A stretch of 64,000 bases of DNA from a virus. Lineage: Duplodnaviria; Heunggongvirae; Uroviricota; Caudoviricetes. The notes beneath the pieces are model-generated. The model searched no databases and was not told the DNA's origin. It saw nothing but the letters and a program-made list of their open reading frames with translations. Position 1 is the stretch's first letter. Each line of letters begins with the position of its first letter. The stretch lies in IMG/VR virus record IMGVR_UViG_2579778842_000017, positions 1 to 64,000 of that record. One strand, written 5' to 3'. Below, piece after piece: positions 2,398 to 61,890 of this stretch. Made by a program: the position numbers and the translations under genes.

Positions 2398-4098
2398 TTA
2401 TACAACTTTCCATTGCGCATCGCCGATCAGCCACGCATCAAACAAGCTCATATATCGAGCTCGCAAACGACAGACCTTGTAATCTTCCCCTACACCATCC
2501 AATGAGATCGGTTTACCCAAAAATGTAAGAGAGGTTAAATTTCTTCCCCGTAATATCAACTCGATTTCCTGCCCGTCATAAGCCTGCCCCTGAGTGGTAA
2601 TGTTTGCCCCGTTGGTTACTGGGATGTAAAACGAACTATGGCCGCTTCTTACCGGAACTGGTGCTGGTAATGTAATTGTGCGAATGTCATTTTCCAGACC
2701 ACTCACTACAGCACCACTCACATCACCGATTAGGGCGGTTAGGCGGTCGCGCTTATGCTCAATTGTTAAGCCTGAGTTGCTGCTGTCTGCATCATAAAAG
2801 CCAGTTGAACGATCTCCGCGTAGGTTTACGTTCATCACACGGCAGCCTGATGTGTTTTTTGCTCTGATGCAAACAGTGCCGCTTGTAGATGAGTGATGAG
2901 AACTGCTTACTAAAGCTCCCCTGGATGATGATAGATTGATATCCGCAATTTTACATGCCTCGTAATATGTATTCCCCATTAGCTCTGTTCCTATGGCCCC
3001 GTGATCCATAGTTCCATATCGTTCACAGTTCTGTATAAAACCACCATCTAAAACTACCGCCGTAGTGTTAAACGTTGTCGAATTATCGACATCAATTCCA
3101 TTCAACCCGTTTCTTATCACTAGGCCATAGTCAGGGAGGACGCCGCCTGGGTCACTACTGTATAAATTGGGATTGAGGATCTTGCAGGCATTAGCGCCAT
3201 TCTGATAGATAAGCCTCGTAGATCCTGTCCCACCATTCATTATTTCTGGATTGTCATTTTTAAGCCCGTAGCAAAGCAAGCCAACTCTCATGCCAACGCA
3301 GTCCCGGCCTAACTGCATATCTACCCACAATCCAAAAATGCCCGAGTTATTACGGCATTTGATTAAATCAATTCCGACAACTCCAGCCTTTCCGTTAAAA
3401 TCAATTCGAGGGTTATGCACCTGTATATTTCTAATATAATCAGTGCCAGCAACAGCTGGATCAGCTTTAAATAGCGTAATATTGTCTCTATTTGCATAAA
3501 AAATAGCGTCTCTTGACTGATGGATCGTTGTATTCCCGTAATAGTAATATGTTGCATCTACCGGATAAATTCCTGGCATGAAATAAATATCTCCACCAGA
3601 GCTCAGTAGCGACTGAATATCCGAGTGAGAATAACTTGGCTCAATGATAACGGCAGGTCGGGTTAGTTTTTTTGGAGCGTAGTCATCATAGATGCTTTGC
3701 CCACCCCATGAACTCCCTACTAATTTGTCCCCTCCAGAAGATGCCAATCTCTTCTCAAACTGATCGGGGTCATACTTCAGCACATTTGGGAATTTGAACT
3801 GCTGCGCCCCATATGCATCATAAACAGCCATAGAATGGCCTTGCACAGTTACGAATTTGGCAATCTGTCCGTTATATACAGGGTAACCAGCGGCGTTAAT
3901 GATGATTGGTTGCGAAACAGGAACGTGAGAACCGTCTTCATTCTCTACATAAACCTGAATCTGGTTTTCAGGATTTACAGGGTCAGTGTCAATTTTACCG
4001 ATATAAATTTTGCCATTGGCAACCGCTTTAAAAGAACGAGCCATAGTGAAGAGTTGCGAAGGCATCGATACAATCACATTAGCTGTAATGTCTGTCAT
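2398..4098 (-). CDS. Tailspike protein, P22-like N-terminal head-binding domain with divergent receptor-binding C-terminus
   Basis: 566 aa; N-terminus [82 protein letters not shown] matches the P22 gp9 head-binding domain. Confidence 0.85.
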
Positions 4099-5100: not shown

Positions 5101-5333
5101 TGTTGGTTTTTCTCCACGGATTTACCGACAACCGAAGCCCTGACTGTTCCAGCAGTTGGGGCTTCACTGTTTTGATTTCTTTGCCGCATCAAGCATCACT
5201 TCTGAAAACGTGCGCTTGCCACTGAATACTCTTTCTCTTCTCAATTTTTCGTTCGTGCCAAATGATTCGCCATGAACAAAATTTGGTCTTAAAATGGTAA
5301 TCGCAATCTCTTTGACTACTGCATCCAAGCGAA

Positions 5334-17472: not shown

Positions 17473-19689
17473 TTACTGCTGTGGTTGTTGCTGAGTTGAT
17501 TTTTGCAGGATGCTGCTGATGTCCATGCGCTGCGCATGGCCTTGCGCCTGACTTTTCAGGACAAGCTCTGCATCAGCACGGGCATTATCTCCTTGCTGTT
17601 GCTGGAACTGTCCGAGCAGTTTCAGCGCCTCACGGATATCAGATTTTTGCTGGCTATCGGCAGATGCGAGGATTTTCACAACATTTGCCGCTGCAACCTG
17701 AGCATCCGTCTGTGCCTGGAATGCTTTAACCTGAATGGCTGCCTGCTCGTTCTGCGCTTTCTGCAATTCAGCCTGACCAGCAAGAAGCTGACCTTGCGCT
17801 GCAACCATAGCCGGATCTGGCTGACTGGCCTGTTGTTGTTTCGCCTGTTCAACCATCTGCTGTTCTTCAGGCGTTCTCGGCTTGATAACGCCAGACAGAA
17901 GCAACTGATTGCGGTTGTATTCTTTCAGGTCGTCCATCCCTTCGCCGTCCATATTGTCGAGAATCATCGACGATACAAGGTCGTGCTTCGGCGTTCCTGG
18001 TGGGATAAGTGCCAGCATGGAAAGTAACGACTTAACCGTTGCGTCACGGCGAGTAGCGAACGACTGACCGACATCGACAGTCACTTCATAGTTACCCTGC
18101 GAAAGGTCGTTAAGCGCGATAACCTGCCCTGTCTGACGGTCAACCACTTCACCAGTCATCAGCGCCACGTCATCGCTGCCGTCCTCATTAACGATACGCA
18201 TCGGCGTATCGCTGCCATAGACTTCACGCGCCATAGAAAGCCACACAACGCCAGCGCGACGCATAGATTTAGCCATGTTGTCCATGTAGATATAGGACTG
18301 CGTGTCCATCCGGTTAAAAATGCTATCAACGGTATCAGTAGCGACGTTGCTCGGCATGTTCTCAAGCTGCGACGCACCTGTAATTTGCTGAATAGCCGTT
18401 CCGGTGTACTGCAATAGCCCGGCAAGAGCTGGAGGCATTTGTGTCGGAGGCGTATAACTGCTGACCTGAGCCTGCGCAGTAATATCTCCGTTTTTGTTTT
18501 TCAGACTGACCATCGGCAGGAACGCCGGGCGCTTTTTGTTGCGCTCCGCCCAATGAGTGGCGAGAGGACCAGGAATCATGTCAACATCAACTACAGGAAT
18601 GCCATCACCGCCAGCCTGAGTAGCGTTATCTGCAATCATGGAAACCATCAGGTTCTCAAGACGCTGTGCATCCATCGCTTTTGCTGCGTGTCCTTCAATT
18701 CGCTCCTGATTATCAACAAATGAGCGACGCCCATATACCGGGATGAGAGGAATATGTTCGCCCGGAATACGCTTCGGTTCTTCCAGCCATTCAGCGCCAG
18801 ACAGAAGACCGCAATAAACGCGGCGCTTCTTCACCGTTCGCTCGCCAATCAGTTCGAATGCACCATCGGTCAGTTCGTCGACAATATCTTTTATTTGCTC
18901 TTCATCATAGATTGCCGTTTCTCCGCTAACAGGGTTGCGCCACGCCGTGATCTTCACCTTCTCTATGCGAACTTCGTAGTAGCGTCCAACATAGATGGCA
19001 TCTGGCGTTGACCAGTCATATTGAGTGCCAGTGTTATCACGAGAAAGGCTTGCCGCGGTGGAATCAGGGTATTCAGCCTCGAACGCTTTGGGCGTCATGG
19101 AGAACATTTCCATAGCCCACATAGCATCAGAGCGGTCATATTGCTTGCTGTCCTGATCAAAGAAGACGCATGTCGCTGGGTCGTAAACAGGAAGAAGGCT
19201 GATGCGTCGCTGCTCGTTACTCGGATCCATTTCATCTTCGTAATCGGCACACATGCGGAAACAACCGAATCCGCCCGTTACAGCATCATCAAATGCGTTA
19301 TCACACGCTTCGCCACCGGATGTTTCCTGATAGTCAGCGCGGAATTTGCCGTTCATCTTTTCGGCTAACGCTTCCGATGCCTTATCGTCCTTAGGCCTGA
19401 ATTTAACGCTGATGCGATTCTGTCGATACTCGCCAATGATGCGATCACATTCACGGGCAATCTTATTCAGTTCAAAGCGCGGGTAATGCTCAAACCTGCC
19501 TTCATCAAATGAGTAACCAGCGTTTGTGCTGCCTTCCCACTGTGCGCCGGACACCCGGACGAAACGTTGAGCCTCAATAATCTGCTCACGCATATCCTTC
19601 GTTGCTGACCAGGCATTATCAAAGTTGCACAGCACCTTGCGATGCCAGTCAGTCATCTTTCTATCATCAGCCATCATCCAACTCCGCAA
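17473..19689 (-). CDS. Portal protein (P22 gp1-like)
   Basis: 738 aa with Gln-rich C-terminal barrel extension; follows TerL. Confidence 0.85.
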   Translation of the reverse strand: MRSWMMADDRKMTDWHRKVLCNFDNAWSATKDMREQIIEAQRFVRVSGAQWEGSTNAGYSFDEGRFEHYPRFELNKIARECDRIIGEYRQNRISVKFRPKDDKASEALAEKMNGKFRADYQETSGGEACDNAFDDAVTGGFGCFRMCADYEDEMDPSNEQRRISLLPVYDPATCVFFDQDSKQYDRSDAMWAMEMFSMTPKAFEAEYPDSTAASLSRDNTGTQYDWSTPDAIYVGRYYEVRIEKVKITAWRNPVSGETAIYDEEQIKDIVDELTDGAFELIGERTVKKRRVYCGLLSGAEWLEEPKRIPGEHIPLIPVYGRRSFVDNQERIEGHAAKAMDAQRLENLMVSMIADNATQAGGDGIPVVDVDMIPGPLATHWAERNKKRPAFLPMVSLKNKNGDITAQAQVSSYTPPTQMPPALAGLLQYTGTAIQQITGASQLENMPSNVATDTVDSIFNRMDTQSYIYMDNMAKSMRRAGVVWLSMAREVYGSDTPMRIVNEDGSDDVALMTGEVVDRQTGQVIALNDLSQGNYEVTVDVGQSFATRRDATVKSLLSMLALIPPGTPKHDLVSSMILDNMDGEGMDDLKEYNRNQLLLSGVIKPRTPEEQQMVEQAKQQQASQPDPAMVAAQGQLLAGQAELQKAQNEQAAIQVKAFQAQTDAQVAAANVVKILASADSQQKSDIREALKLLGQFQQQQGDNARADAELVLKSQAQGHAQRMDISSILQKSTQQQPQQ

Positions 19690-21170
19690 GGTATGTTGTA
19701 GCTTGAGTAATCAATCTCTTTAGGATCTTTGATGTCTCGCATCTGTATTGCAAAACGCCTCATCATGTAGCCATAGCGAACAGCAGAAAGGATGTCGTCA
19801 TTTAGCTTGACGATCTTCCCGTTCTCATCGCGGTGATACAGACGAAACTCTTCAAAGAATGGCTCGCAGGTGTTAAATACCTTGAAACGACCGTCGAGCA
19901 TCATGTCGCGTATCTCTGCTATCCCGGGTTCGACCGCATTACCTCCATCAGGCCATGTTGCATGATCTGGCAACATGTCGAACCCAGCTTCGGCGTATTG
20001 TTCCTTGAGCTGAGCGCCGCCTCCCTTTTCGTGCTGATGCCCGTCATGAGGCCAAGCCGTAGGGGTGTTTTTGCTCCATGCTTTAACAGCACTCCATGCC
20101 TCTGTCGCCTTCTTCTGTTTGGCCTTCCAGACGCGAGAAAGATAAATCACGTCCTCGTCTTTATCCCACCAAAGCTGGATATGTGCCTGTGGGTGATCCC
20201 ATCCGAAGTCCATTGCATTGATGACGTAGAAGTGATCAGGACACTCGAACGGCTGACACTTAATCGTCTCTTCCGGTATCTGGAAGATTCGACCGCTACC
20301 CATCGTAGGAATACCGCGAGCACGCGCCTCTCTCTCATGCTCGGGATAGGATGCGATGATTTGCTCTTTCTGTTCGTCTGTGTAGTGCTCAGCGTCATAG
20401 ATGGTCATGTTGACCACTTTCTGCGACTTGCTGGGATTCTTCAGGAACTTGGTAACAACGTCAGACATCCCCATCAGCGGGGTAAACGTCAGAATTGAGA
20501 ATTGCCCGTATTTGTTGGTACGGGTAAGACCTTCGCCATAAATGCTGTATGGTGGCTCTTCGTCAAACCACACGCCGTGGATTGTGTCACCCTGCCAGCG
20601 AGCGCGGCCTTGCGAGTATGGTTTGAAGTAGCAGATTGAAATGCCATCTTCAACGCCATCAGCCGTGTGATGCTTAACCAGAAGATGATCAACAAGGTTC
20701 GGAAAGAAAGGAGACTTCTTCCAGCTAATGATGTCTTCTTTAGGTATGGAACCGTAGCCTGGCTCATCATTCTCTTCGATACGACCACACAGGATGCGTT
20801 GAGTCGTTTTGGTTACAGTCTCGTTTGTCTCGCCGCCAATCCAGAAGACAACAGGCTCATAGAAACGCTTACCTTTCCACTCACCGCCATATTTACCATC
20901 AGCAGGATAGCCTTTTGTGCCCGGGTAACGCCCGGTAAGGTGAAACGCGACTTCAGCAGCACCAGTAAATGACTTACCAAGCTGGTTACCAGCCATAAAA
21001 CATCGCTCTGGATAGTCATGCCCGGCGTCGATGAACTCACGCTGTTTGCTGTATGGCGTAAATTCATATAGCAGGTGTGTGTTACGGTAGTTCTCTTCTT
21101 CTTCGAGTAGCTCGAGCAATTCGATTTGCTCTTCGTCGCTCAAGTTATCAAGAATCGCGTCCAGTTCCAC
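19674..21170 (-). CDS. Terminase large subunit (P22 gp2-like)
   Basis: 498 aa; N-terminus [30 protein letters not shown], Walker A-like GNQLGKS. Confidence 0.9.
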
Positions 21171-28153: not shown

Positions 28154-28590
28154 GCAGCCCGATCTCCCCATCGCGCTTTCCACTCCAGAGCCAGTCGCGC
28201 TTCGTCTGACCACTTAACGCCACGCTCTGTACCGAATGCCTGTATAAGCTCTAATAACTCCGCAAATTCGCTTACACGCATCCTGCTGGTTGACTGGCCT
28301 ATTACCACAAAGCCATTCCCGGCAAGGTTAGGAACAACGTCCTGCTGCTTTAATGCTGCGGTAAACACACACTTCCAGCTTTCTGCATCCAGCCGGCGAC
28401 CATGCCATTCAACCTGACGCGAAACGTCACCAAGGCAAGCCCAAAGCTTCCGATTTTGGTCTAAGCTGCGGTTGTGCTCCTGAATGGTTACTACTATTGG
28501 TTTGGTTGGGTCTGGAAGGATTTGCTGTACTGCGTGAATAGCGTTTTGCTGATGTGCTGGAGATCGAATTTCAAAGGTTAGTTTTTTCAT
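28150..28590 (-). CDS. ninB: NinB (Orf-family recombination mediator)
   Basis: 146 aa MKKLTFEIRSPAHQQNAIHAVQQILPD..., lambda NinB-like. Confidence 0.85.
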   Translation of the reverse strand: MKKLTFEIRSPAHQQNAIHAVQQILPDPTKPIVVTIQEHNRSLDQNRKLWACLGDVSRQVEWHGRRLDAESWKCVFTAALKQQDVVPNLAGNGFVVIGQSTSRMRVSEFAELLELIQAFGTERGVKWSDEARLALEWKARWGDRAA

Positions 28591-28864: not shown

Positions 28865-31258
28865 TCATACGTCCGCCCCTTGTGCATATCGTCTGCCACG
28901 CGCAGCAGGCGCATTTGATGCTGTGCAAATCTGTCTGGCTTCATCCTGGTCACATGCAACAAAGTGTCCGTTGCAGAACCGCTGGTAAACCGTACCAAGT
29001 GAGCCAAAACGGTTTTTCGTCACGATGATTTCAGCAAATGGCGCGGCGCTACTGTTCTCGTCATATACCGCTTCCCGATAGAGCATGATGATTGAGTCTG
29101 CGTCCTGCTCAATGCTTCCTGAATCACGCAAATCTGCGTTTGTCGGGCGTTTGTTTGGTCGCTTCTCAACATCGCGCGAAAGCTGACTTAGGGAGATAAC
29201 AGGCGTTTTCAAGTCTTTCGCCATCGCCTTCAGGCTTCCTGAGATGTGAGCAATTGCGAGGTCGTTGCGGTCTGCTTTCGGCTTCTCAATCAGGCCAAGA
29301 TAATCCGCCATGATGAGTGAGAGGTTTGGATTTTCCTGTTTGTGCCGTTCTGCGATTGAGCGTATTTCTTCGACCGATAACCGCGAGGCATCGACTACCC
29401 ATACATCCAAATCCGCTAGCTGACTCATGCCGTTAGCAACACGTGCCCAGCCCTCGTCATCCATCGATGCAGGATTTCGCAGTACGCTAACCGACATCCT
29501 CCCGGCGTTGGCAATGCTTCGCTCTGCAATCTGCAATGCGCTCATTTCCATTGAGAAAATCAATACCCCGCGCCGGACGTCAGAACCAGGAATAACGCGG
29601 CTTGCAACGCCTTCGGCAATCTTCAGCGCCAGTTCCGTATTGTGCGTAACGATGTAATCCGTTGTCACATAGAGATGGCTAGGATGGCTTACCATGATGC
29701 AGAGACACTCTTCTGGCTCAACAACTTCAACCGATTTGATACCCACACCAAGGTCGCCAAGCCTGTTAATCCCGAGATTTTTGCGTAAACGTGGTGAGTG
29801 AATTTGCTCTATCAAAGATGATGGCAACTTCATGCTGACCATGTGTGCATCAAGTCCGTCGTGCTTCTCTCCTTTGTACGTGTAAACTATTCCCGTCCTG
29901 CTGGATTCTTTGGCGGTTCCACCTAAAGATCTAACAAGCCTTACTAATCCTTTAGCTAATTTCTGACTGGATGAACTAAAGCGGATGCATCCGGACTTCT
30001 CAACCCAGCCATCTGTCTCGAGAAGGCCAGTTAAAACACCGGTACGTATTTCTTTGCTAGCACTAAAAATTTCTGCTGGGATTTCCTTCTCGGACGCACC
30101 TTTCCCGATCACCCCAATGCCACGTAGTTTGTCCAATAGTGGGTTCTTCTGGCCTTTTTGGTTGCTTATCAAATAATCATTCTCTCCTACCTTAACCAGT
30201 CGCAATGGTGCAATTGCATCACTCATGCGGCTCAGGACATATTCTTCCGAGTTGGTGAATTTGATGCCTTTTATCAACGAACCGTCACCAAGTAGAGCCC
30301 CAATAACCCAACCATCAAGGGGAATATTTTTACCAAAGTCTCCGGTCAAGGATGGCACTCTTATTCTTCCCTGATAACGTGTTTTTTGTAGCATCCCAGC
30401 CAGCGCATCAGTATCAACAACGCGTTTACCAGTAAATCTTGATGATGAAATTTCCCATAAGTGGTTGTCGGCACATTTCACGCTACGTCCGTCTTCAAAG
30501 GTGACTAAATATGTGAATTTCTTCCCTTGTGGGAAGACGCCAATTACCTCCGAAGGAAGCCCGTCTATTGACGCGATGCGATCGCCAATTTTGACTTCTC
30601 CGTGAGTAGTCCAGGTGCCATCTGCAAGTAAAATCCCTTCGCTTAGCGCCATTGCTTTCCCCATACCAGGACGAGCAGCGATTATCACCAGGTCTTCCGC
30701 GTTCATCCCTCCGGTGATGGCATCAAGTTCTTCGATTCCGGTCTTCAGGGTATCGGACTCTTCTCCGTTCCTCAGACGCCTGTCAAGCGTGTCAGTGTAG
30801 TCAGTAATGATTTCCCCTAACCGTACAGGTTTTACCTCGTCACGGGGCTTTCTGATAGCTGAGAGACGTTTTACAAGTTCATCCATCGCCTGACTCGATG
30901 CGTCGATGGTTCCGCTCTGAATTGGTTCACGCATTTCATCCATGATTTCCAGCACCAGACGGCGGTGATAGTTATCCGCGACCATTCCGGCATATCCCTT
31001 CAGGTTTGCGGCACTCGGGCAGTTTTTGCTGGTCATCAGGATTGACGTGAAATGCTCCTCTCCGCACGCCTCGGCAACCATCAGCGCATCGATTAGGTTT
31101 CTGTTTCTCGCCTGCTTGCGGATAACCTCGAAGGCTTTCCGGTAGAGCGGAATTGAAAACGCTTCCGGCTCCAGCGTTGCCAGAACGTCGCTGGCGGTTG
31201 GTGTTAATCCACCAATCAGCAGGCCACCGATAACGCTCGCTTCGATATCCTGTCTCAT
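28865..31258 (-). CDS. Replicative DnaB-like helicase (P22 gene 12-type) interrupted by an in-frame intein
   Basis: 797 aa; Walker A AARPGMGK split from [10 protein letters not shown] by about 339 aa; C-terminal DnaB-like RecA fold. Confidence 0.85.
29639..30655 (-). mobile_element. Intein with LAGLIDADG-type homing endonuclease domain inside the helicase P-loop
   Basis: in-frame insert [13 protein letters not shown]...YIVTHN|T; motifs [13 protein letters not shown] and [11 protein letters not shown]; ends HN followed by Thr; begins with Ala. Confidence 0.65.
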
Positions 31259-41412: not shown

Positions 41413-41762
41413 TGGACTATTCACAGTTAAGTGATTTTGAAATTAACAGAATGGTAGGAGACATAATTTTTAAAGGCCTTTGGGCATGTAAACCGGAAAC
41501 ATCAGGGAATAACACCAACAAATGGTATTACGGAAATGCTGATACAACTTTTGAGCCATTAAACCCTTTACCTGACTACTGCAATAATCCATCGGATGCA
41601 TGGCCTATTATTGTTGATAATAAAATCAGTCTAACCTGCCACCAATCTCGCGGTGAGTGGTCAGCTGTTTTTAATGCCGAGAACATTTGCTTTCATGCGA
41701 ATAATCCACTCCGAGCCGCCATGATTGTATTTCTCATGATGCAGGAAAATCAGAATGGCTAA
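41409..41762 (+). CDS. NinX/DUF2591-like protein, paralog of 27088-27456
   Basis: [13 protein letters not shown] ... [19 protein letters not shown]; same termini as the nin-region copy. Confidence 0.6.
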   Translation: MMDYSQLSDFEINRMVGDIIFKGLWACKPETSGNNTNKWYYGNADTTFEPLNPLPDYCNNPSDAWPIIVDNKISLTCHQSRGEWSAVFNAENICFHANNPLRAAMIVFLMMQENQNG

Positions 41763-42093
41763 ATCAGCAGCAGAGCGCAAAGCCGCTCAGAGAGCCAGAC
41801 AAGCTGCATCTGGTGTGCGTAAGCTGGAGATTGTGCTTGATGCTCAGGAAATTGAAATGCTGGAGCGTAACTGTGCCACGCGTCGCCCCGGGCGTGCGCC
41901 TTACGAATTTGGTGAGTATATAGCGTTACTGATCCGCCAGGATGATGCACGCGTGCACGGGCGTATAAAATCGATCAGCAGAAAACGTTGCGGTAAGTGC
42001 GGCGAGAGAGTTCCTGTGAATTCATGCCCGTGTAATGGTGACTCGCAATGCTGGGTGACTAAAGGCTGGCATGAAACGAAATTAATAGTGTGA
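41755..42093 (+). CDS. Small basic protein with C-terminal Cys cluster (zinc-finger-like), last gene before the second terminase
   Basis: 112 aa; basic helical N-terminus, CGKCGERVPVNSCPCNGDSQC; stop codon lies inside the GTGACATGTCAC palindrome. Confidence 0.5.
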   Translation: MAKSAAERKAAQRARQAASGVRKLEIVLDAQEIEMLERNCATRRPGRAPYEFGEYIALLIRQDDARVHGRIKSISRKRCGKCGERVPVNSCPCNGDSQCWVTKGWHETKLIV

Positions 42094-42101
42094 CATGTCA
42101 C
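42090..42101. repeat. Palindrome GTGACATGTCAC (copy 1 of 3)
   Basis: perfect 12-bp palindrome at the junction between early-left operon and second virion module. Confidence 0.6.
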
Positions 42102-42142
42102 GAGTAGATTATGCATGATGAATTTGATGGGTTTTGAATACT

Positions 42143-42168
42143 GCCGCCAACTATGGCGGCTTTATTTT
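42143..42168 (+). terminator. Rho-independent terminator
   Basis: GCCGCCAACTATGGCGGC then TTTATTTT. Confidence 0.65.
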
Positions 42169-42211
42169 GCATGGTACTATTACCACAACGGTAACTATTA
42201 CCACGGTGGTT

Positions 42212-42808
42212 ATGATGCCTGCTGAACCTAAAACCTATAAACGCAAATCAACGCAATTTAAGCCACTAACAGCAATGCAGGAGGCTTATTGCCAGTCATA
42301 CATCAAAACGCCTGAAAACCAGACTCAGGCAGCGATTAACGCAGGATTCTCCCCAAATACAGCGGCAGTTAAAGCCAGTGTCATGATGCGCGATGAACGC
42401 ATTCAAAAACGGATTGCCGAGCTGATGGAGGAGCGCAACAAACGAATGCGCGTCAGTGCTGATTACGTTCTCATGCGCCTGGTGGAGATCGACCAGATGG
42501 ACGTGATTGATATCCTCAACGACGATGGGAGTCTTAAGCCAATCCGCGAGTGGCCGAAAATCTGGCGCACTACGCTTAGTGGCTTTGATCTGTCATCGAC
42601 CATCATGAACATGAACGAGGATTCGATAGAGACAATCCTCAAAAAAATTAAATGGCCTGACAAGATGAAGAACCTCGAACTGATTGGTAAGCACGTCGAC
42701 GTTAACGCGTTCAAAGAGCGCCTGGAGGTTTCCGGCACGGTCACCATCGCCGACCGCATGGCCGCCGCCCGGCGCCGCGTCATAGAGCAGGCTGGTGGTG
42801 AAGAATGA
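42212..42808 (+). CDS. Terminase small subunit (second virion module)
   Basis: about 200 aa from MMPAEPKTYKRK, directly upstream of and overlapping TerL; ORF track extends to a TTG at 42134. Confidence 0.7.
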   Translation: MMPAEPKTYKRKSTQFKPLTAMQEAYCQSYIKTPENQTQAAINAGFSPNTAAVKASVMMRDERIQKRIAELMEERNKRMRVSADYVLMRLVEIDQMDVIDILNDDGSLKPIREWPKIWRTTLSGFDLSSTIMNMNEDSIETILKKIKWPDKMKNLELIGKHVDVNAFKERLEVSGTVTIADRMAAARRRVIEQAGGEE

Positions 42809-44330: not shown

Positions 44331-44354
44331 AGCCAGCTCATAGGCTGGCTGTTT
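44331..44354 (+). terminator. Rho-independent terminator after TerL
   Basis: AGCCAGCTCATAGGCTGGCT followed by GTTTGTG. Confidence 0.5.
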
Positions 44355-44366
44355 GTGATATGTCAC
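44355..44366. repeat. Palindrome GTGATATGTCAC (copy 2, one mismatch)
   Basis: immediately after the TerL terminator. Confidence 0.5.
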
Positions 44367-44370
44367 GGTG

Positions 44371-44742
44371 TTATTGCTCGCTTAACTTCTGCTTCAGCAA
44401 GTAACCTTCAAGCATCCAGATTTTGTTTACAGCATTCTGTCGGGCAATCTTCCGACCAATTTCTGCATCAAAGTTTTCCGGGCTTGCACAGGCGCTCTCT
44501 CCGGTGACGGTGAAGCCGTTGCGCAGCACCAGGACGCAGAACGTCAGCAGAGAAAGTGATTCGTGCGGCTGGTAGTTTACCTCTCCGCCAGTATGTTTCG
44601 CTTTTATGGCTACGCCAAAGGCACCATCTTCTGCTGTGAAATATGCCTCCTGAGCAATAATGCTCTCGATATGGTCTGGCGTAACGCGCGGCGCGGCTAA
44701 ACCTTTAGCCTGAATTTCAGATTCAATGTCTTTGTCACTCAT
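44371..44742 (-). CDS. Hypothetical moron protein between terL and portal
   Basis: 123-aa minus-strand ORF inserted in an otherwise plus-strand virion operon. Confidence 0.6.
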   Translation of the reverse strand: MSDKDIESEIQAKGLAAPRVTPDHIESIIAQEAYFTAEDGAFGVAIKAKHTGGEVNYQPHESLSLLTFCVLVLRNGFTVTGESACASPENFDAEIGRKIARQNAVNKIWMLEGYLLKQKLSEQ

Positions 44743-44943
44743 AGTCTAATCTCACCTTAAAAATGCCCGGCGAACCGGGCGAACTGGAAGCAATGAGTTA
44801 TGCCTTCCGTGGCTGTACGGGTTTACAGCATGAAGTCATCGCAATGGCGTCCTGCTGTAAAAAGGGCGGTGATAGTCCTTCAAGGGAAACCATCACCGCC
44901 AAGCCCCTGGAACTTCTGGCATCACGGTCCTTAGGCGTGATTC

Positions 44944-45020
44944 TGGCGTGGCATGCAGGATTCGAACCTGCGACCAACCGCTTAGAAGGCGGTTGCTCTG
45001 TCCGACTGAGCTAATGCCAC
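44944..45020 (-). tRNA. Phage-borne tRNA-Arg (anticodon UCU)
   Basis: minus strand reads GTGGCATTAGCTCAGTCGGACAGAGCAACCGCCTTCTAAGCGGTTGGTCGCAGGTTCGAATCCTGCATGCCACGCCA: 7-bp acceptor stem, anticodon loop CTTCTAA, 3' CCA. Confidence 0.8.
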
Positions 45021-45447
45021 AACGCTGAGAGCACTTAGCCTGTTAAGGCACCACACTTTGTCGCGGCTCCATAAATGCTCTCATCGTTGTACCCTCGTCT
45101 CTTCCGAGGCGTCACACCGAATCGCCGGGATGGTGAATCCCCGTGCGCGGCATAAAACCGCTCGACTTGCACATTCCGGCTACCTGGTTCGTTTGCCCGA
45201 GCAAGGGAGGGTGCCCCTTAAACGTATCCAGACCGCTATCGGCGCATGTGCCATACGCCGTACTGCTCAAAATAAAAGCTCACTCCACCTGTTCAATTTA
45301 ACGACAAGCCAGTCAGGTTAATAACAGGAATGCACTCTATGCTTACCTGAAAGGTAATAATTCGTGCGTTAAATGTCAACTACCTACGATAAATAAATCA
45401 TATGTGGTTAAATTGGTAATAATTTAATTGCGTACGGAGTCATTGAT

Positions 45448-47348: not shown

Positions 47349-47641
47349 CAGATTACGAAGACGATCAACTGAAAGAAGAAAACGCCCGTAAGCAACGTGA
47401 CATGGCACAGCGTGAAATTGATGACATTCGCTTTGTCATGAGCAGTGAACAGGGGCGTCGCGTTGTCTGGTCTGTGCTGGAGAAAGGCCGTGTGTTTTCC
47501 GCTATCTCTCCGATGGATGCTATGGCAATGGCATTTAATGAGGGGCAACGCAATCTGGCGCTGGAACTGTTTCAGCGCGTTATGGCGCATTGCCCTGAAC
47601 AGTATTTGAAGATGGCCAAAGAGGCCAGTGAACAGGAGTGA
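47345..47641 (+). CDS. Hypothetical head-module protein
   Basis: 98-aa ORF overlapping portal stop. Confidence 0.5.
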   Translation: MTDYEDDQLKEENARKQRDMAQREIDDIRFVMSSEQGRRVVWSVLEKGRVFSAISPMDAMAMAFNEGQRNLALELFQRVMAHCPEQYLKMAKEASEQE

Positions 47642-61852: not shown

Positions 61853-61864
61853 GTGACATGTCAC
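61853..61864. repeat. Palindrome GTGACATGTCAC (copy 3)
   Basis: perfect copy right after the lipoprotein stop and before a terminator. Confidence 0.6.
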
Positions 61865-61890
61865 AGGCCGCTTTCGCGGCCTTGTTTTTA
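61865..61890 (+). terminator. Rho-independent terminator ending the virion operon
   Basis: AGGCCGCTTTCGCGGCCT then TGTTTTT. Confidence 0.7.

What the first reader, a model, noticed from the sequence alone, without database searches (positions are those of the whole stretch)
41755..42093. Small basic Cys-cluster protein immediately upstream of the second terminase: candidate late activator
Position (last gene before TerS, followed by a terminator), size and a C-terminal C-x2-C ... C-P-C ... C cluster are reminiscent of small zinc-finger late-gene activators (Ogr/Delta-like) rather than an excisionase. Its stop codon is embedded in the GTGACATGTCAC palindrome.
Basis: inference. Interest (0 to 1): 0.4.

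Follow-up and report, generated by a model that had tools for sequence, protein, structure and literature searches.

The report
Phage DNA-binding regulator with its own palindrome
The small cysteine-rich gene before the terminase is real and encodes a predicted ribbon-helix-helix DNA-binding protein with a zinc knuckle; the palindrome holding its stop codon is probably its own binding site, and the evidence points to a repressor or roadblock rather than an Ogr-like activator of late genes.

Summary
ORF 41755-42093 (+) encodes a 112-aa basic protein. Its TGA stop lies inside the perfect palindrome GTGACATGTCAC, and a terminator and then TerS follow.

The protein is phiV10 p55 / epsilon15 gp49 / N15 gp46 (PHROG 536, "transcriptional regulator"). 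It has no Pfam family. It is not Ogr/Delta and not Xis.

The predicted structure (pLDDT 91.5) is a basic N-terminal helix, a ribbon-helix-helix fold, then a four-Cys zinc knuckle and a C-terminal helix. The C-terminal part is weakly similar to the TraR/DksA zinc module.

The new result is that the palindrome travels with the gene. YGTGAC-NN-GTCACR overlaps or abuts the stop codon in homologues down to 35% identity. It recurs 1-3 times per carrier genome: 19 sites in 302 kb against 0.29 expected.

This window has copies after this gene, after TerL and after the last virion gene. Each lies next to a terminator hairpin.

Homologues coexist with true Q or Ogr genes and are not tied to TerS. In relatives, sites lie just downstream of or inside promoter-like sequences, or within early genes. 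TerS has its own conserved extended -10 overlapped by a repressor-operator motif.

The best reading is a delayed-early site-specific DNA binder that acts negatively. A late-activator role is unsupported but not excluded.

The parts
41755..42093 (+). Gene for the 112-aa ribbon-helix-helix plus zinc-knuckle protein (phiV10 p55 / epsilon15 gp49 / N15 gp46 family, PHROG 536).
42090..42101 (.). Site A: palindrome GTGACATGTCAC holding the gene's TGA stop. Probable cognate operator (14-bp form TGTGACATGTCACG, 42089-42102).
   Evidence: Conserved at or next to the stop in homologues of 35-100% identity, even where the stop lies outside it.
42143..42169 (+). Intrinsic-terminator-like hairpin plus T-run ending the upstream operon.
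   Evidence: The hairpin is conserved, with sequence changes, in relatives. Annotated as a terminator in epsilon15 and phiV10.
42172..42180 (+). Conserved extended -10-like element, TGgTACTAT (TG-N-TA[C/T][T/G]AT in relatives). Candidate TerS-operon promoter.
   Evidence: Alignment of five TerS leaders. Inference from sequence; not detected by the -35-dependent scan.
42179..42195 (.). ATTACCACAACGGTAAC, which matches the ATTACC-N4/5-GGTAAT motif annotated as prophage-repressor binding sites in epsilon15. It overlaps the -10-like element.
   Evidence: epsilon15 annotation and site sequences. Conserved block in the alignment. Part of the direct repeat ACTATTACCAC x2 at 42176-42186 and 42194-42204.
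42212..42808 (+). Terminase small subunit. The ATG at 42212 or 42215 is more likely than the TTG at 42134 that RefSeq uses.
   Evidence: Pfam Terminase_2 and PHROG 51. Start inferred by alignment with epsilon15.
44355..44366 (.). Site B: GTGATATGTCAC (1 mismatch), 75 bp after the TerL stop and 4 bp from a bidirectional terminator-like hairpin (44331-44350).
   Evidence: An exact copy sits at the same place in phiV10, epsilon15, L008 and L010, and in 56 of 80 IMG/VR relatives.
61853..61864 (.). Site C: exact GTGACATGTCAC, 3 bp after the last gene of the virion operon and directly abutting a terminator-like hairpin (61865-61882).
   Evidence: Equivalent copies lie in phiV10 (19493) and epsilon15 (19517, overlapping the gp18 stop).
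47397..47408 (.). One-mismatch copy GTGACATGGCAC inside a coding region after the portal gene. Uncertain whether functional.
   Evidence: The same variant is in phiV10 at 5306.

Best explanation
The gene encodes a delayed-early, sequence-specific DNA-binding protein.

Predicted architecture. It is predicted to be a ribbon-helix-helix protein, a fold that normally binds DNA as a dimer (established knowledge, not tested here). It has a basic N-terminal helix carrying the near-invariant R8 and R13. After the long second helix come a four-Cys zinc knuckle and a short C-terminal helix.

Probable operator. This is the 14-bp palindrome YGTGAC-NN-GTCACR. One copy is built into the 3' end of its own gene, and up to two more lie elsewhere in each carrier genome.

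Site positions. In this phiV10-like prophage the three copies mark the ends of the three rightward transcription units, each next to an intrinsic terminator: the early operon and this gene, TerS-TerL, and the virion operon.

Proposed action. By analogy with most ribbon-helix-helix proteins, and from the site positions in relatives, I propose that it acts negatively. It would work as an operator-bound repressor or transcriptional roadblock and insulator that limits transcription across these junctions once it has accumulated. It would not switch on the late operon.

Shown: the gene, the predicted fold, the Cys conservation, the gene-site linkage, and the site enrichment and positions.

Inferred: that this protein binds the palindrome, that it binds zinc, and the sign of regulation.

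For: Zinc site. All 57 diverse members keep C79 and C82 and at least one Cys between them and position 99. C99 is present in 56 of 57.

Gene-site linkage.
- The palindrome overlaps or abuts the stop codon in epsilon15-like loci, including two where the stop lies upstream of it.
- The same holds in ZF40, AH07, N15 and a P2-like Yersinia phage, and in a 39%-identical metagenomic homologue.
- 75 of 80 IMG/VR relatives have it at position -1 of the stop.

Enrichment.
- There are 19 GTGAC-NN-GTCAC sites in 302 kb of eight carrier genomes, against 0.29 expected.
- There are none in 70 kb of neighbouring non-carrier DNA.
- All 19 are flanked Y...R.

Co-variation. The divergent Aeromonas homologue goes with a variant 12-mer, GTGACCGGACAC, present three times.

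Negative-regulator geometry in relatives.
- Two Aeromonas sites lie 14-16 nt downstream of -10-like hexamers. One of them is directly in front of the family gene.
- One N15 site fills the spacer of a promoter-like sequence upstream of the immA operon (operon described in PMC4488713).
- Other sites lie inside cII-like, repA and Q-like genes.
- The two intragenic ZF40 sites impose the same CDMSQ peptide on two different proteins, gp08 and the cII-like gp12, which show no evident similarity (not compared directly).

Against any need for an activator. The TerS leader has a conserved extended -10-like element overlapped by the motif annotated as the repressor operator in epsilon15.
Against: There is no binding, zinc or expression experiment. 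The protein-site pairing rests on co-occurrence.

Several homologue loci show no site within the DNA available (L009, L021, L105-107, L110, L111, L113), though many of these contigs are short.

In this prophage none of the three sites overlaps a convincing promoter, so repression here would have to be by roadblock or some other mechanism.

A single dimer on 14 bp is expected to be a weak elongation block.

All three sites lie 0-41 bp from terminators. That could equally mean the protein modulates termination in either direction.

Some ribbon-helix-helix proteins are activators, for example AmrZ and TraY (own knowledge).
Confidence: 0.45

Rival explanations
1. Late-gene activator. The protein binds near the early/late junction and turns on a promoter for TerS and the downstream virion genes.
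For: It is the last early gene before TerS in epsilon15-like phages. The phiV10-like prophage in E. coli UMNK88, which is collinear with window positions 39778-62899, has no annotated Q, Ogr or other late regulator. The TerS-leader -10-like element has no good -35. Vibrio phage K253 has a site 19 nt before the TerS ATG. Late activators encoded just upstream of terS are known in Gram-positive phages (RinA, PMC3152322).
Against: Homologues coexist with Q in N15, ZF40, AH07, L105 and L111, and with a true Ogr in a P2-like phage. They are usually far from terminase genes. The palindrome-to-promoter distance varies from 67 to 107 bp. The other two sites lie at the 3' ends of operons, not upstream of late operons at a fixed distance. 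Extended -10 promoters generally need no activator (established knowledge). The site 19 nt before an ATG in K253 is a repressor-type position.
Confidence: 0.12
2. Terminator modulator. The DNA-bound protein contacts RNA polymerase through its TraR-like zinc module. It changes the efficiency of the adjacent intrinsic terminators, either as antitermination that lets early transcription run into the late genes or as enhanced termination.
For: All three sites in this prophage lie 0-41 bp from terminator-like hairpins. The top PDB sequence hits of the family profile are TraR and YbiI (E 0.02-0.03). hhalign against a TraR alignment gives probability 66% and P 5.7e-5 over residues 47-105, with a shared CxxCGxx[ILV]P motif. 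phiV10 annotation shows several terminators inside the rightward early operon, with no annotated N or Q.
Against: The TraR features needed for function are absent: a free N-terminal DxxDxA helix and a CxxC...CxxC finger (PMC9239242). Pfam zf-dskA_traR is not hit. Sites in N15, ZF40 and AH07 are not next to terminators. A site that is itself transcribed would be cleared of protein just before the polymerase reaches the terminator.
Confidence: 0.15
3. Architectural or bridging protein, working like MatP on matS. Dimers on the few dispersed palindromes pair through the C-terminal module and loop the phage DNA, for example isolating the TerS-TerL segment. This would serve replication, packaging or domain insulation.
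Confidence: 0.13
4. The palindrome is bound by something else, such as a host factor, the terminase or a nuclease, or it is a recombination boundary sequence. The protein would then have an unrelated target.
For: There is no direct binding data. The sites lie at module boundaries where morons are inserted: after site A in L008 and L018, and after TerL. The half-sites resemble host MatP and SlmA motifs (PMC3116907).
Against: The site follows this gene into five unrelated phage types with different terminases and hosts. It changes sequence together with the protein in the Aeromonas phage. It is absent from 70 kb of adjacent non-carrier DNA.
Confidence: 0.1

Closest known systems
Ribbon-helix-helix regulators of phages and plasmids (P22 Arc and Mnt, CopG, type II antitoxins)
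   Different: It has an extra basic N-terminal helix and a C-terminal four-Cys knuckle plus helix. The operator is embedded in the 3' end of its own gene rather than at its promoter in most phages. There is no significant sequence match to any RHH Pfam family.
TraR/DksA zinc-finger RNA polymerase-binding proteins (F TraR, lambda Orf73, P2 Orf82)
   Same: A helix / Cys-knuckle / helix layout over residues 47-110, with the motif CxxCGxx[ILV]P. Like the phage TraR homologues, it is encoded in a phage early operon (PMC9239242).
   Different: There is no free N-terminal DxxDxA helix. The fourth ligand is a Cys in the loop rather than a second CxxC. It is fused to a DNA-binding domain. Pfam PF01258 is not hit.
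Ogr/Delta late activators of P2 and P4
   Same: A small phage protein with a Cys cluster.
   Different: The family, fold and Cys spacing all differ. There is no TGT-N12-ACA in the TerS leader. It coexists with a true Ogr in a P2-like phage.
MatP-matS of E. coli
   Same: A ribbon-helix-helix DNA binder whose palindrome has the same GTGAC/GTCAC half-sites and occurs as a few dispersed copies.
   Different: The half-site spacing is 2 bp rather than 3 bp. There is no four-helix bundle or coiled coil. It is phage-encoded.
Lambda Q with its adjacent qut site, and RinA-type activators upstream of terS
   Same: A regulator gene placed next to its site of action at the early/late boundary, with a terminator just downstream.
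   Different: There is no sequence or fold similarity. Homologues coexist with Q genes. The geometry relative to promoter and terminator is not conserved.

Membership tests
PHROG 536 (phage 'transcriptional regulator'; phiV10 p55, epsilon15 gp49, N15 gp46) | Full-length profile match. | tested here: met
   E 1.5e-54, residues 1-111 against profile positions 2-114 of 115. tblastn hits to phiV10, epsilon15, ZF40 and N15.
Ogr/Delta zinc-finger late activators | Match to Pfam PF04606 (N-terminal C-x2-C-x22-C-x4-C finger). | tested here: not met
   No hit at E<=1 for the protein, and none at E<=0.1 in 57 relatives. The positive control, Yersinia phage gp44, scores 1.8e-21. The Cys pattern here is C-terminal: C-x2-C-x8-C-x-C-x5-C.
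Ogr/Delta zinc-finger late activators | TGT-N12-ACA activator site upstream of late promoters. | tested here: not met
   None between 42094 and 42211. The window has 11 matches against 16 expected.
Ogr/Delta zinc-finger late activators | Sole late regulator of its phage. | tested here: not met
   The family member and a true Ogr coexist in Yersinia phage vB_YenM_06.16-2.
Ribbon-helix-helix (CopG/Arc/MetJ) superfamily | Beta-strand / helix / helix fold. | tested here: met
Ribbon-helix-helix (CopG/Arc/MetJ) superfamily | Sequence-profile membership (an RHH Pfam family). | tested here: inconclusive
   Only sub-threshold hits in a few members: RHH_5 at 0.013, RepB-RCR_reg at 0.028 and RHH_1 at 0.071. 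NCBIfam YbfE at 0.051.
Ribbon-helix-helix (CopG/Arc/MetJ) superfamily | Dimer that inserts a two-stranded sheet into the major groove of a short repeat. | not testable with these tools
   A palindromic 14-bp candidate site was found. Binding was not measured.
TraR/DksA C4 zinc-finger family | C-x2-C-x17-C-x2-C finger (Pfam PF01258). | tested here: not met
   No PF01258 hit. The second CxxC is replaced: one Cys lies in the loop, plus C99.
TraR/DksA C4 zinc-finger family | N-terminal helix with a DxxDxA motif that reaches the active site (PMC9239242). | tested here: not met
   The aligned helix starts at residue 47, after the RHH strand and first helix, and reads RAPYEFGEY.
TraR/DksA C4 zinc-finger family | Detectable remote homology. 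| tested here: inconclusive
   Profile against PDB: TraR at E 0.02 and YbiI at E 0.029. hhalign probability 65.8%, P 5.7e-5.
Excisionase (Xis/Cox) | Profile match to an excisionase family. | tested here: not met
   No such hit in Pfam, PHROGs or NCBIfam.
Lambdoid Q antiterminators | Match to a Q family profile; one per phage. | tested here: not met
   No Q-family hit. Homologues lie beside genuine Q genes in N15, ZF40, AH07, L105 and L111.
MatP | 13-bp matS site, with a four-helix bundle and coiled coil flanking the RHH. | tested here: not met
   Only the 12-bp spacing occurs. No N1, N3 or N4 spacing variants were found in the window or in phiV10, epsilon15, ZF40, N15 and the Yersinia phage. 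The model lacks both extra domains.

The most novel reading that the evidence does not exclude
The family is a fusion of a ribbon-helix-helix DNA-binding domain with a degenerate TraR/DksA-type RNA polymerase-binding zinc module. It would be a DNA-tethered polymerase modifier parked at the ends of transcription units. There it would decide whether polymerase terminates at the adjacent intrinsic terminators, making it a new, Q-unrelated way for epsilon15-like phages to gate early-to-late read-through. These phages have several terminators in their early operon and no annotated N or Q.
Probability: 0.1. Interest if true: 0.75.

Novelty: new variant of a known kind. Interest (0 to 1): 0.45.

Why it matters
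epsilon15/phiV10-like phages are common prophages of E. coli, Salmonella, Citrobacter and Klebsiella. phiV10 is an E. coli O157:H7 phage, and identical proteins are found in the O157 typing phages 9 and 10. I found no description of how they time late gene expression.

This gene is the only candidate DNA-binding regulator at their early/late junction. Its family is annotated only as "hypothetical" or as a generic regulator, and it has no Pfam family.

The analysis gives the family three concrete, cheaply testable properties:
- A fold.
- A conserved metal site.
- A precise 14-bp candidate operator, with a small and mappable set of sites in each phage. These include sites inside cII-like, repA and Q-like genes, and a site in front of the N15 anti-immunity operon.

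If binding is confirmed, it would add a regulator to the circuits of several model temperate phages (N15, ZF40, epsilon15). It would also explain a conserved palindrome at operon boundaries.

Tried and rejected
- phmmer of the protein against PDB sequences found nothing.
- Foldseek against PDB gave only a marginal hit to TTHA0139 (E about 1).
- Foldseek against BFVD matched only a 46-aa fragment of the same family, mislabelled "ubiquitin-binding zinc finger".
- The afdb50 library was not available.
- The search for related loci with the family alignment failed, because no stretch was conserved enough.
- The single-protein scan of IMG/VR returned only relatives of 97-100% identity. These served for counting, not for co-variation.
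- The key papers on epsilon15 (PMC2698709) and on the SPC32H repressor (PMC3807360; PNAS 2016) are not held. The repressor-operator assignment therefore rests on the GenBank annotation of epsilon15 only.
- A full-text search for the palindrome sequences found no relevant paper.
- A sigma-70 promoter using GTGACA as its -35 (GTGACA-18-CATGAT) was considered. A -10-like hexamer at the right spacing occurs in only some relatives (read by eye), and the transcript would run straight into the terminator. I left it as unresolved.
- Host-factor motifs were rejected for wrong spacing or central bases: CRP (own knowledge), SlmA (own knowledge; the identity of the four flanking base pairs is noted in PMC3116907) and MatP (PMC3116907).
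- An RNA hairpin role for the palindrome was rejected, because five pairs with a two-base loop cannot form.

Full report
**1. The observation**

The ORF at 41755-42093 (+) is present exactly as described.
- It encodes 112 aa with pI 9.64.
- Cysteines are at 40, 79, 82, 91, 93 and 99.
- Its ATG overlaps the stop of the upstream NinX-family gene.
- Its TGA (42091-42093) lies inside the perfect palindrome GTGACATGTCAC (42090-42101).
- A strong terminator-like hairpin with a T-run follows at 42143-42169.
- TerS (Terminase_2) follows, most likely starting at 42212 or 42215.

**2. Identity and context**

The protein is 100% identical over the aligned residues 20-112 to phiV10 p55 and about 76% identical to epsilon15 gp49.
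- It matches PHROG 536 ("transcriptional regulator") over its full length, at E 1.5e-54.
- It has no Pfam or NCBIfam family.
- NCBI calls it hypothetical.
- The family is small: 152 clusters at 50% identity in 1.8 billion representatives.

From 39778 onward the window is collinear with the phiV10-like prophage of E. coli UMNK88 and with phiV10 itself. Upstream it is a P22-like prophage on the other strand, joined inside an Ead/Ea22 gene.

In complete phiV10 and epsilon15, the gene is the last one of the rightward early operon, directly before TerS.

**3. Fold**

An alignment-based AlphaFold2 model is confident, with pLDDT 91.5.
- A basic helix precedes the ribbon. R8 and R13 are each present in 56 of 57 members.
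- The C-terminal third is a Cys knuckle plus a helix.
- Across 57 diverse members, C79 and C82 are invariant and C99 is present in 56.
- Every member has at least one more Cys between C82 and C99. The "CPC" pair is a subgroup peculiarity.

This pattern is what a structural C4 zinc site would look like. That is an inference.

The family profile's only PDB sequence hits below E 0.1 are TraR and YbiI. hhalign against a TraR alignment gives 66% probability and P 5.7e-5 over residues 47-105, with a shared CxxCGxx[ILV]P motif. The TraR features required for function are absent: the N-terminal DxxDxA helix and the second CxxC (PMC9239242). I therefore treat this only as a possible distant relationship of the zinc module.

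**4. The palindrome is a selected DNA site that travels with the gene**

In 14 genomic loci with homologues of 54-86% identity, GTGACATGTCAC overlaps the stop or lies within 10 bp after it. This includes two loci where the stop codon is upstream of the palindrome, so it is not a by-product of coding.

The same design appears in much more distant homologues:

| Phage or locus | Sequence at the stop |
|---|---|
| N15 gp46 | CGTGACTGGTCACG |
| P2-like Yersinia phage | TGTGACGCGTCACA |
| Pantoea AH07 | CGTGACCTGTCACG |
| ZF40 gp22 | exact copy, 3 bp after the stop |
| 39%-identical metagenomic homologue | TGTGACAGGTCACA |

Further counts:
- 75 of 80 IMG/VR relatives have the site at position -1 of the stop.
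- Eight carrier genomes hold 19 GTGAC-NN-GTCAC sites in 302 kb, against 0.29 expected.
- All 19 sites are flanked Y...R.
- 70 kb of adjacent non-carrier DNA holds none.
- No other half-site spacing occurs in the window or in the five carrier genomes checked.
- A divergent Aeromonas homologue goes with a variant 12-mer, GTGACCGGACAC, present three times.

This co-occurrence and co-variation is the basis for assigning the palindrome to this protein. Binding itself is not shown.

**5. Where the sites are**

In this window the sites are at 42090 (own stop), 44355 (one mismatch, after TerL) and 61853 (after the last virion gene). Each lies 0-41 bp from a terminator-like hairpin. The same three positions hold in phiV10 and epsilon15. 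The post-TerL copy is exact in 56 of 80 relatives.

Elsewhere the extra sites are placed as follows:
- ZF40: inside the cII-like gene and inside gp08, where both impose the peptide CDMSQ. The cII-like position is shared with Providencia prophages.
- N15: inside repA, and in the spacer of a promoter-like sequence upstream of the immA operon (PMC4488713).
- AH07: inside the Q-like gene.
- K253: 19 nt before the start codons of TerS and one other gene.
- Aeromonas phage: 14-16 nt downstream of -10-like hexamers, once directly in front of the family gene.

These positions fit an operator or roadblock, not an upstream activator site.

**6. The late-activator idea**

Four results argue against it.
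- Ogr/Delta membership fails on profile, Cys pattern and binding-site motif. A P2-like phage has both a true Ogr and a family member.
- The gene is next to TerS only in epsilon15-like phages. Elsewhere it lies in early operons of phages that have their own Q.
- Five TerS leaders share three conserved blocks: the palindrome, the terminator, and the block TG-N-TA(C/T)(T/G)AT overlapped by ATTACC-N5-GGTAA(T/C). The last block is an extended -10-like element under the motif that the epsilon15 record annotates as prophage-repressor sites. That motif is also annotated before the portal and tail-fibre operons.
- The spacer between the palindrome and these elements varies by 40 bp.

Late operons therefore look directly repressor-controlled, and a fixed-geometry activator at site A is unlikely. 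Activation cannot be excluded. The -35 is poor, and the UMNK88 phiV10-like prophage, which is collinear with this window from 39778, has no annotated late regulator.

**7. Verdict**

This is a real, conserved but uncharacterised phage regulator. It combines a ribbon-helix-helix DNA binder with a C-terminal zinc knuckle, and it has a candidate 14-bp operator built into its own 3' end and repeated at transcription-unit boundaries.

The most likely action is negative: a repressor, roadblock or insulator acting after delayed-early expression (confidence about 0.45).

The rivals, with confidence about 0.1-0.15 each, are:
- A late activator.
- A terminator modulator using a TraR-like polymerase contact.
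- A MatP-like bridging protein.
- A palindrome that belongs to another factor.

It is a new variant of a known kind. Interest is moderate.

Noticed in passing
window 1-39777 versus 39778-64000: The window is a composite. A P22-like prophage lies on the minus strand (tailspike 2398-4098, portal 17473-19689, TerL 19674-21170, primase/helicase 28865-31258). Its plus-strand early-left operon runs, through a junction inside an Ead/Ea22 gene at about 39778, into phiV10-like DNA. The phiV10-type integrase, immunity and replication genes are missing. This is either a recombinant or tandem prophage, or an assembly join.
   Followed up: partly
window 42134-42215: RefSeq and phiV10 annotations start TerS at the TTG at 42134, which overlaps the terminator hairpin. 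Alignment with epsilon15 and other relatives favours the ATG at 42212 or 42215, behind a GGTGG ribosome-binding site.
   Followed up: partly
window 42172-42204: The direct repeat ACTATTACCAC x2 contains the ATTACC/GGTAA half-sites that epsilon15's record annotates as prophage-repressor operators. The same motif is annotated before the portal and tail-fibre operons of epsilon15. This suggests the late operons are directly repressed in the lysogen.
   Followed up: partly
window 44371-45021 (minus strand): A Gp49-family gene and a tRNA-Arg lie on the opposite strand between TerL and the portal gene, as a moron-like insert (RefSeq annotation of the identical UMNK88 prophage). Site B sits exactly at the convergent junction.
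   Followed up: no
L022 (phiV10 NC_007804.2), record ends: The phiV10 record is opened inside the palindrome. It ends ...GTGTGA and begins CATGTTAC..., so this copy has one mismatch and is split across the ends. It is unclear whether this reflects a physical genome end or an arbitrary choice.
   Followed up: no
L024 (ZF40) 5125 and 7622; L016 138-149: Two different ZF40 proteins (gp08 and the cII-like gp12, with no evident similarity; not compared directly) both contain CDMSQ, encoded by the palindrome. A Providencia prophage has the palindrome at the homologous position of its cII-like gene (RDMSR).
   Followed up: partly
L116 (N15) 28550-28561: GTGACCAGTCAC fills the 17-bp spacer of a leftward promoter-like sequence (TGTGCA...TAAAAT), about 100 nt upstream of the annotated terminator that precedes the immA (antA-icd-antB) operon. 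This may be the promoter of the small CA RNA.
   Followed up: partly
L121 (Aeromonas phage 85AhydR10PP) 19904, 44302, 46954: The identical non-palindromic 12-mer GTGACCGGACAC (read on the minus strand) occurs three times, each 14-16 nt upstream of a start codon. Two copies lie just downstream of sigma-70-like promoters, one of which drives the family gene.
   Followed up: partly
L118 (Vibrio phage K253) about 21290 and about 35895: The motif TTATACGCG is shared 30-41 nt upstream of two of the palindromes (before gene 0032 and before TerS). It may be a second regulatory element.
   Followed up: no
L108/L109 4975 and 4998: Two tandem GTGACGCGTCAC copies, 23 bp apart, lie between a Bro-N gene and a convergent HTH gene, 2.1 kb from the family gene. 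Here, as at site C of the window, the palindrome lies at the 3' end of a Bro-N (antirepressor-like) gene.
   Followed up: no
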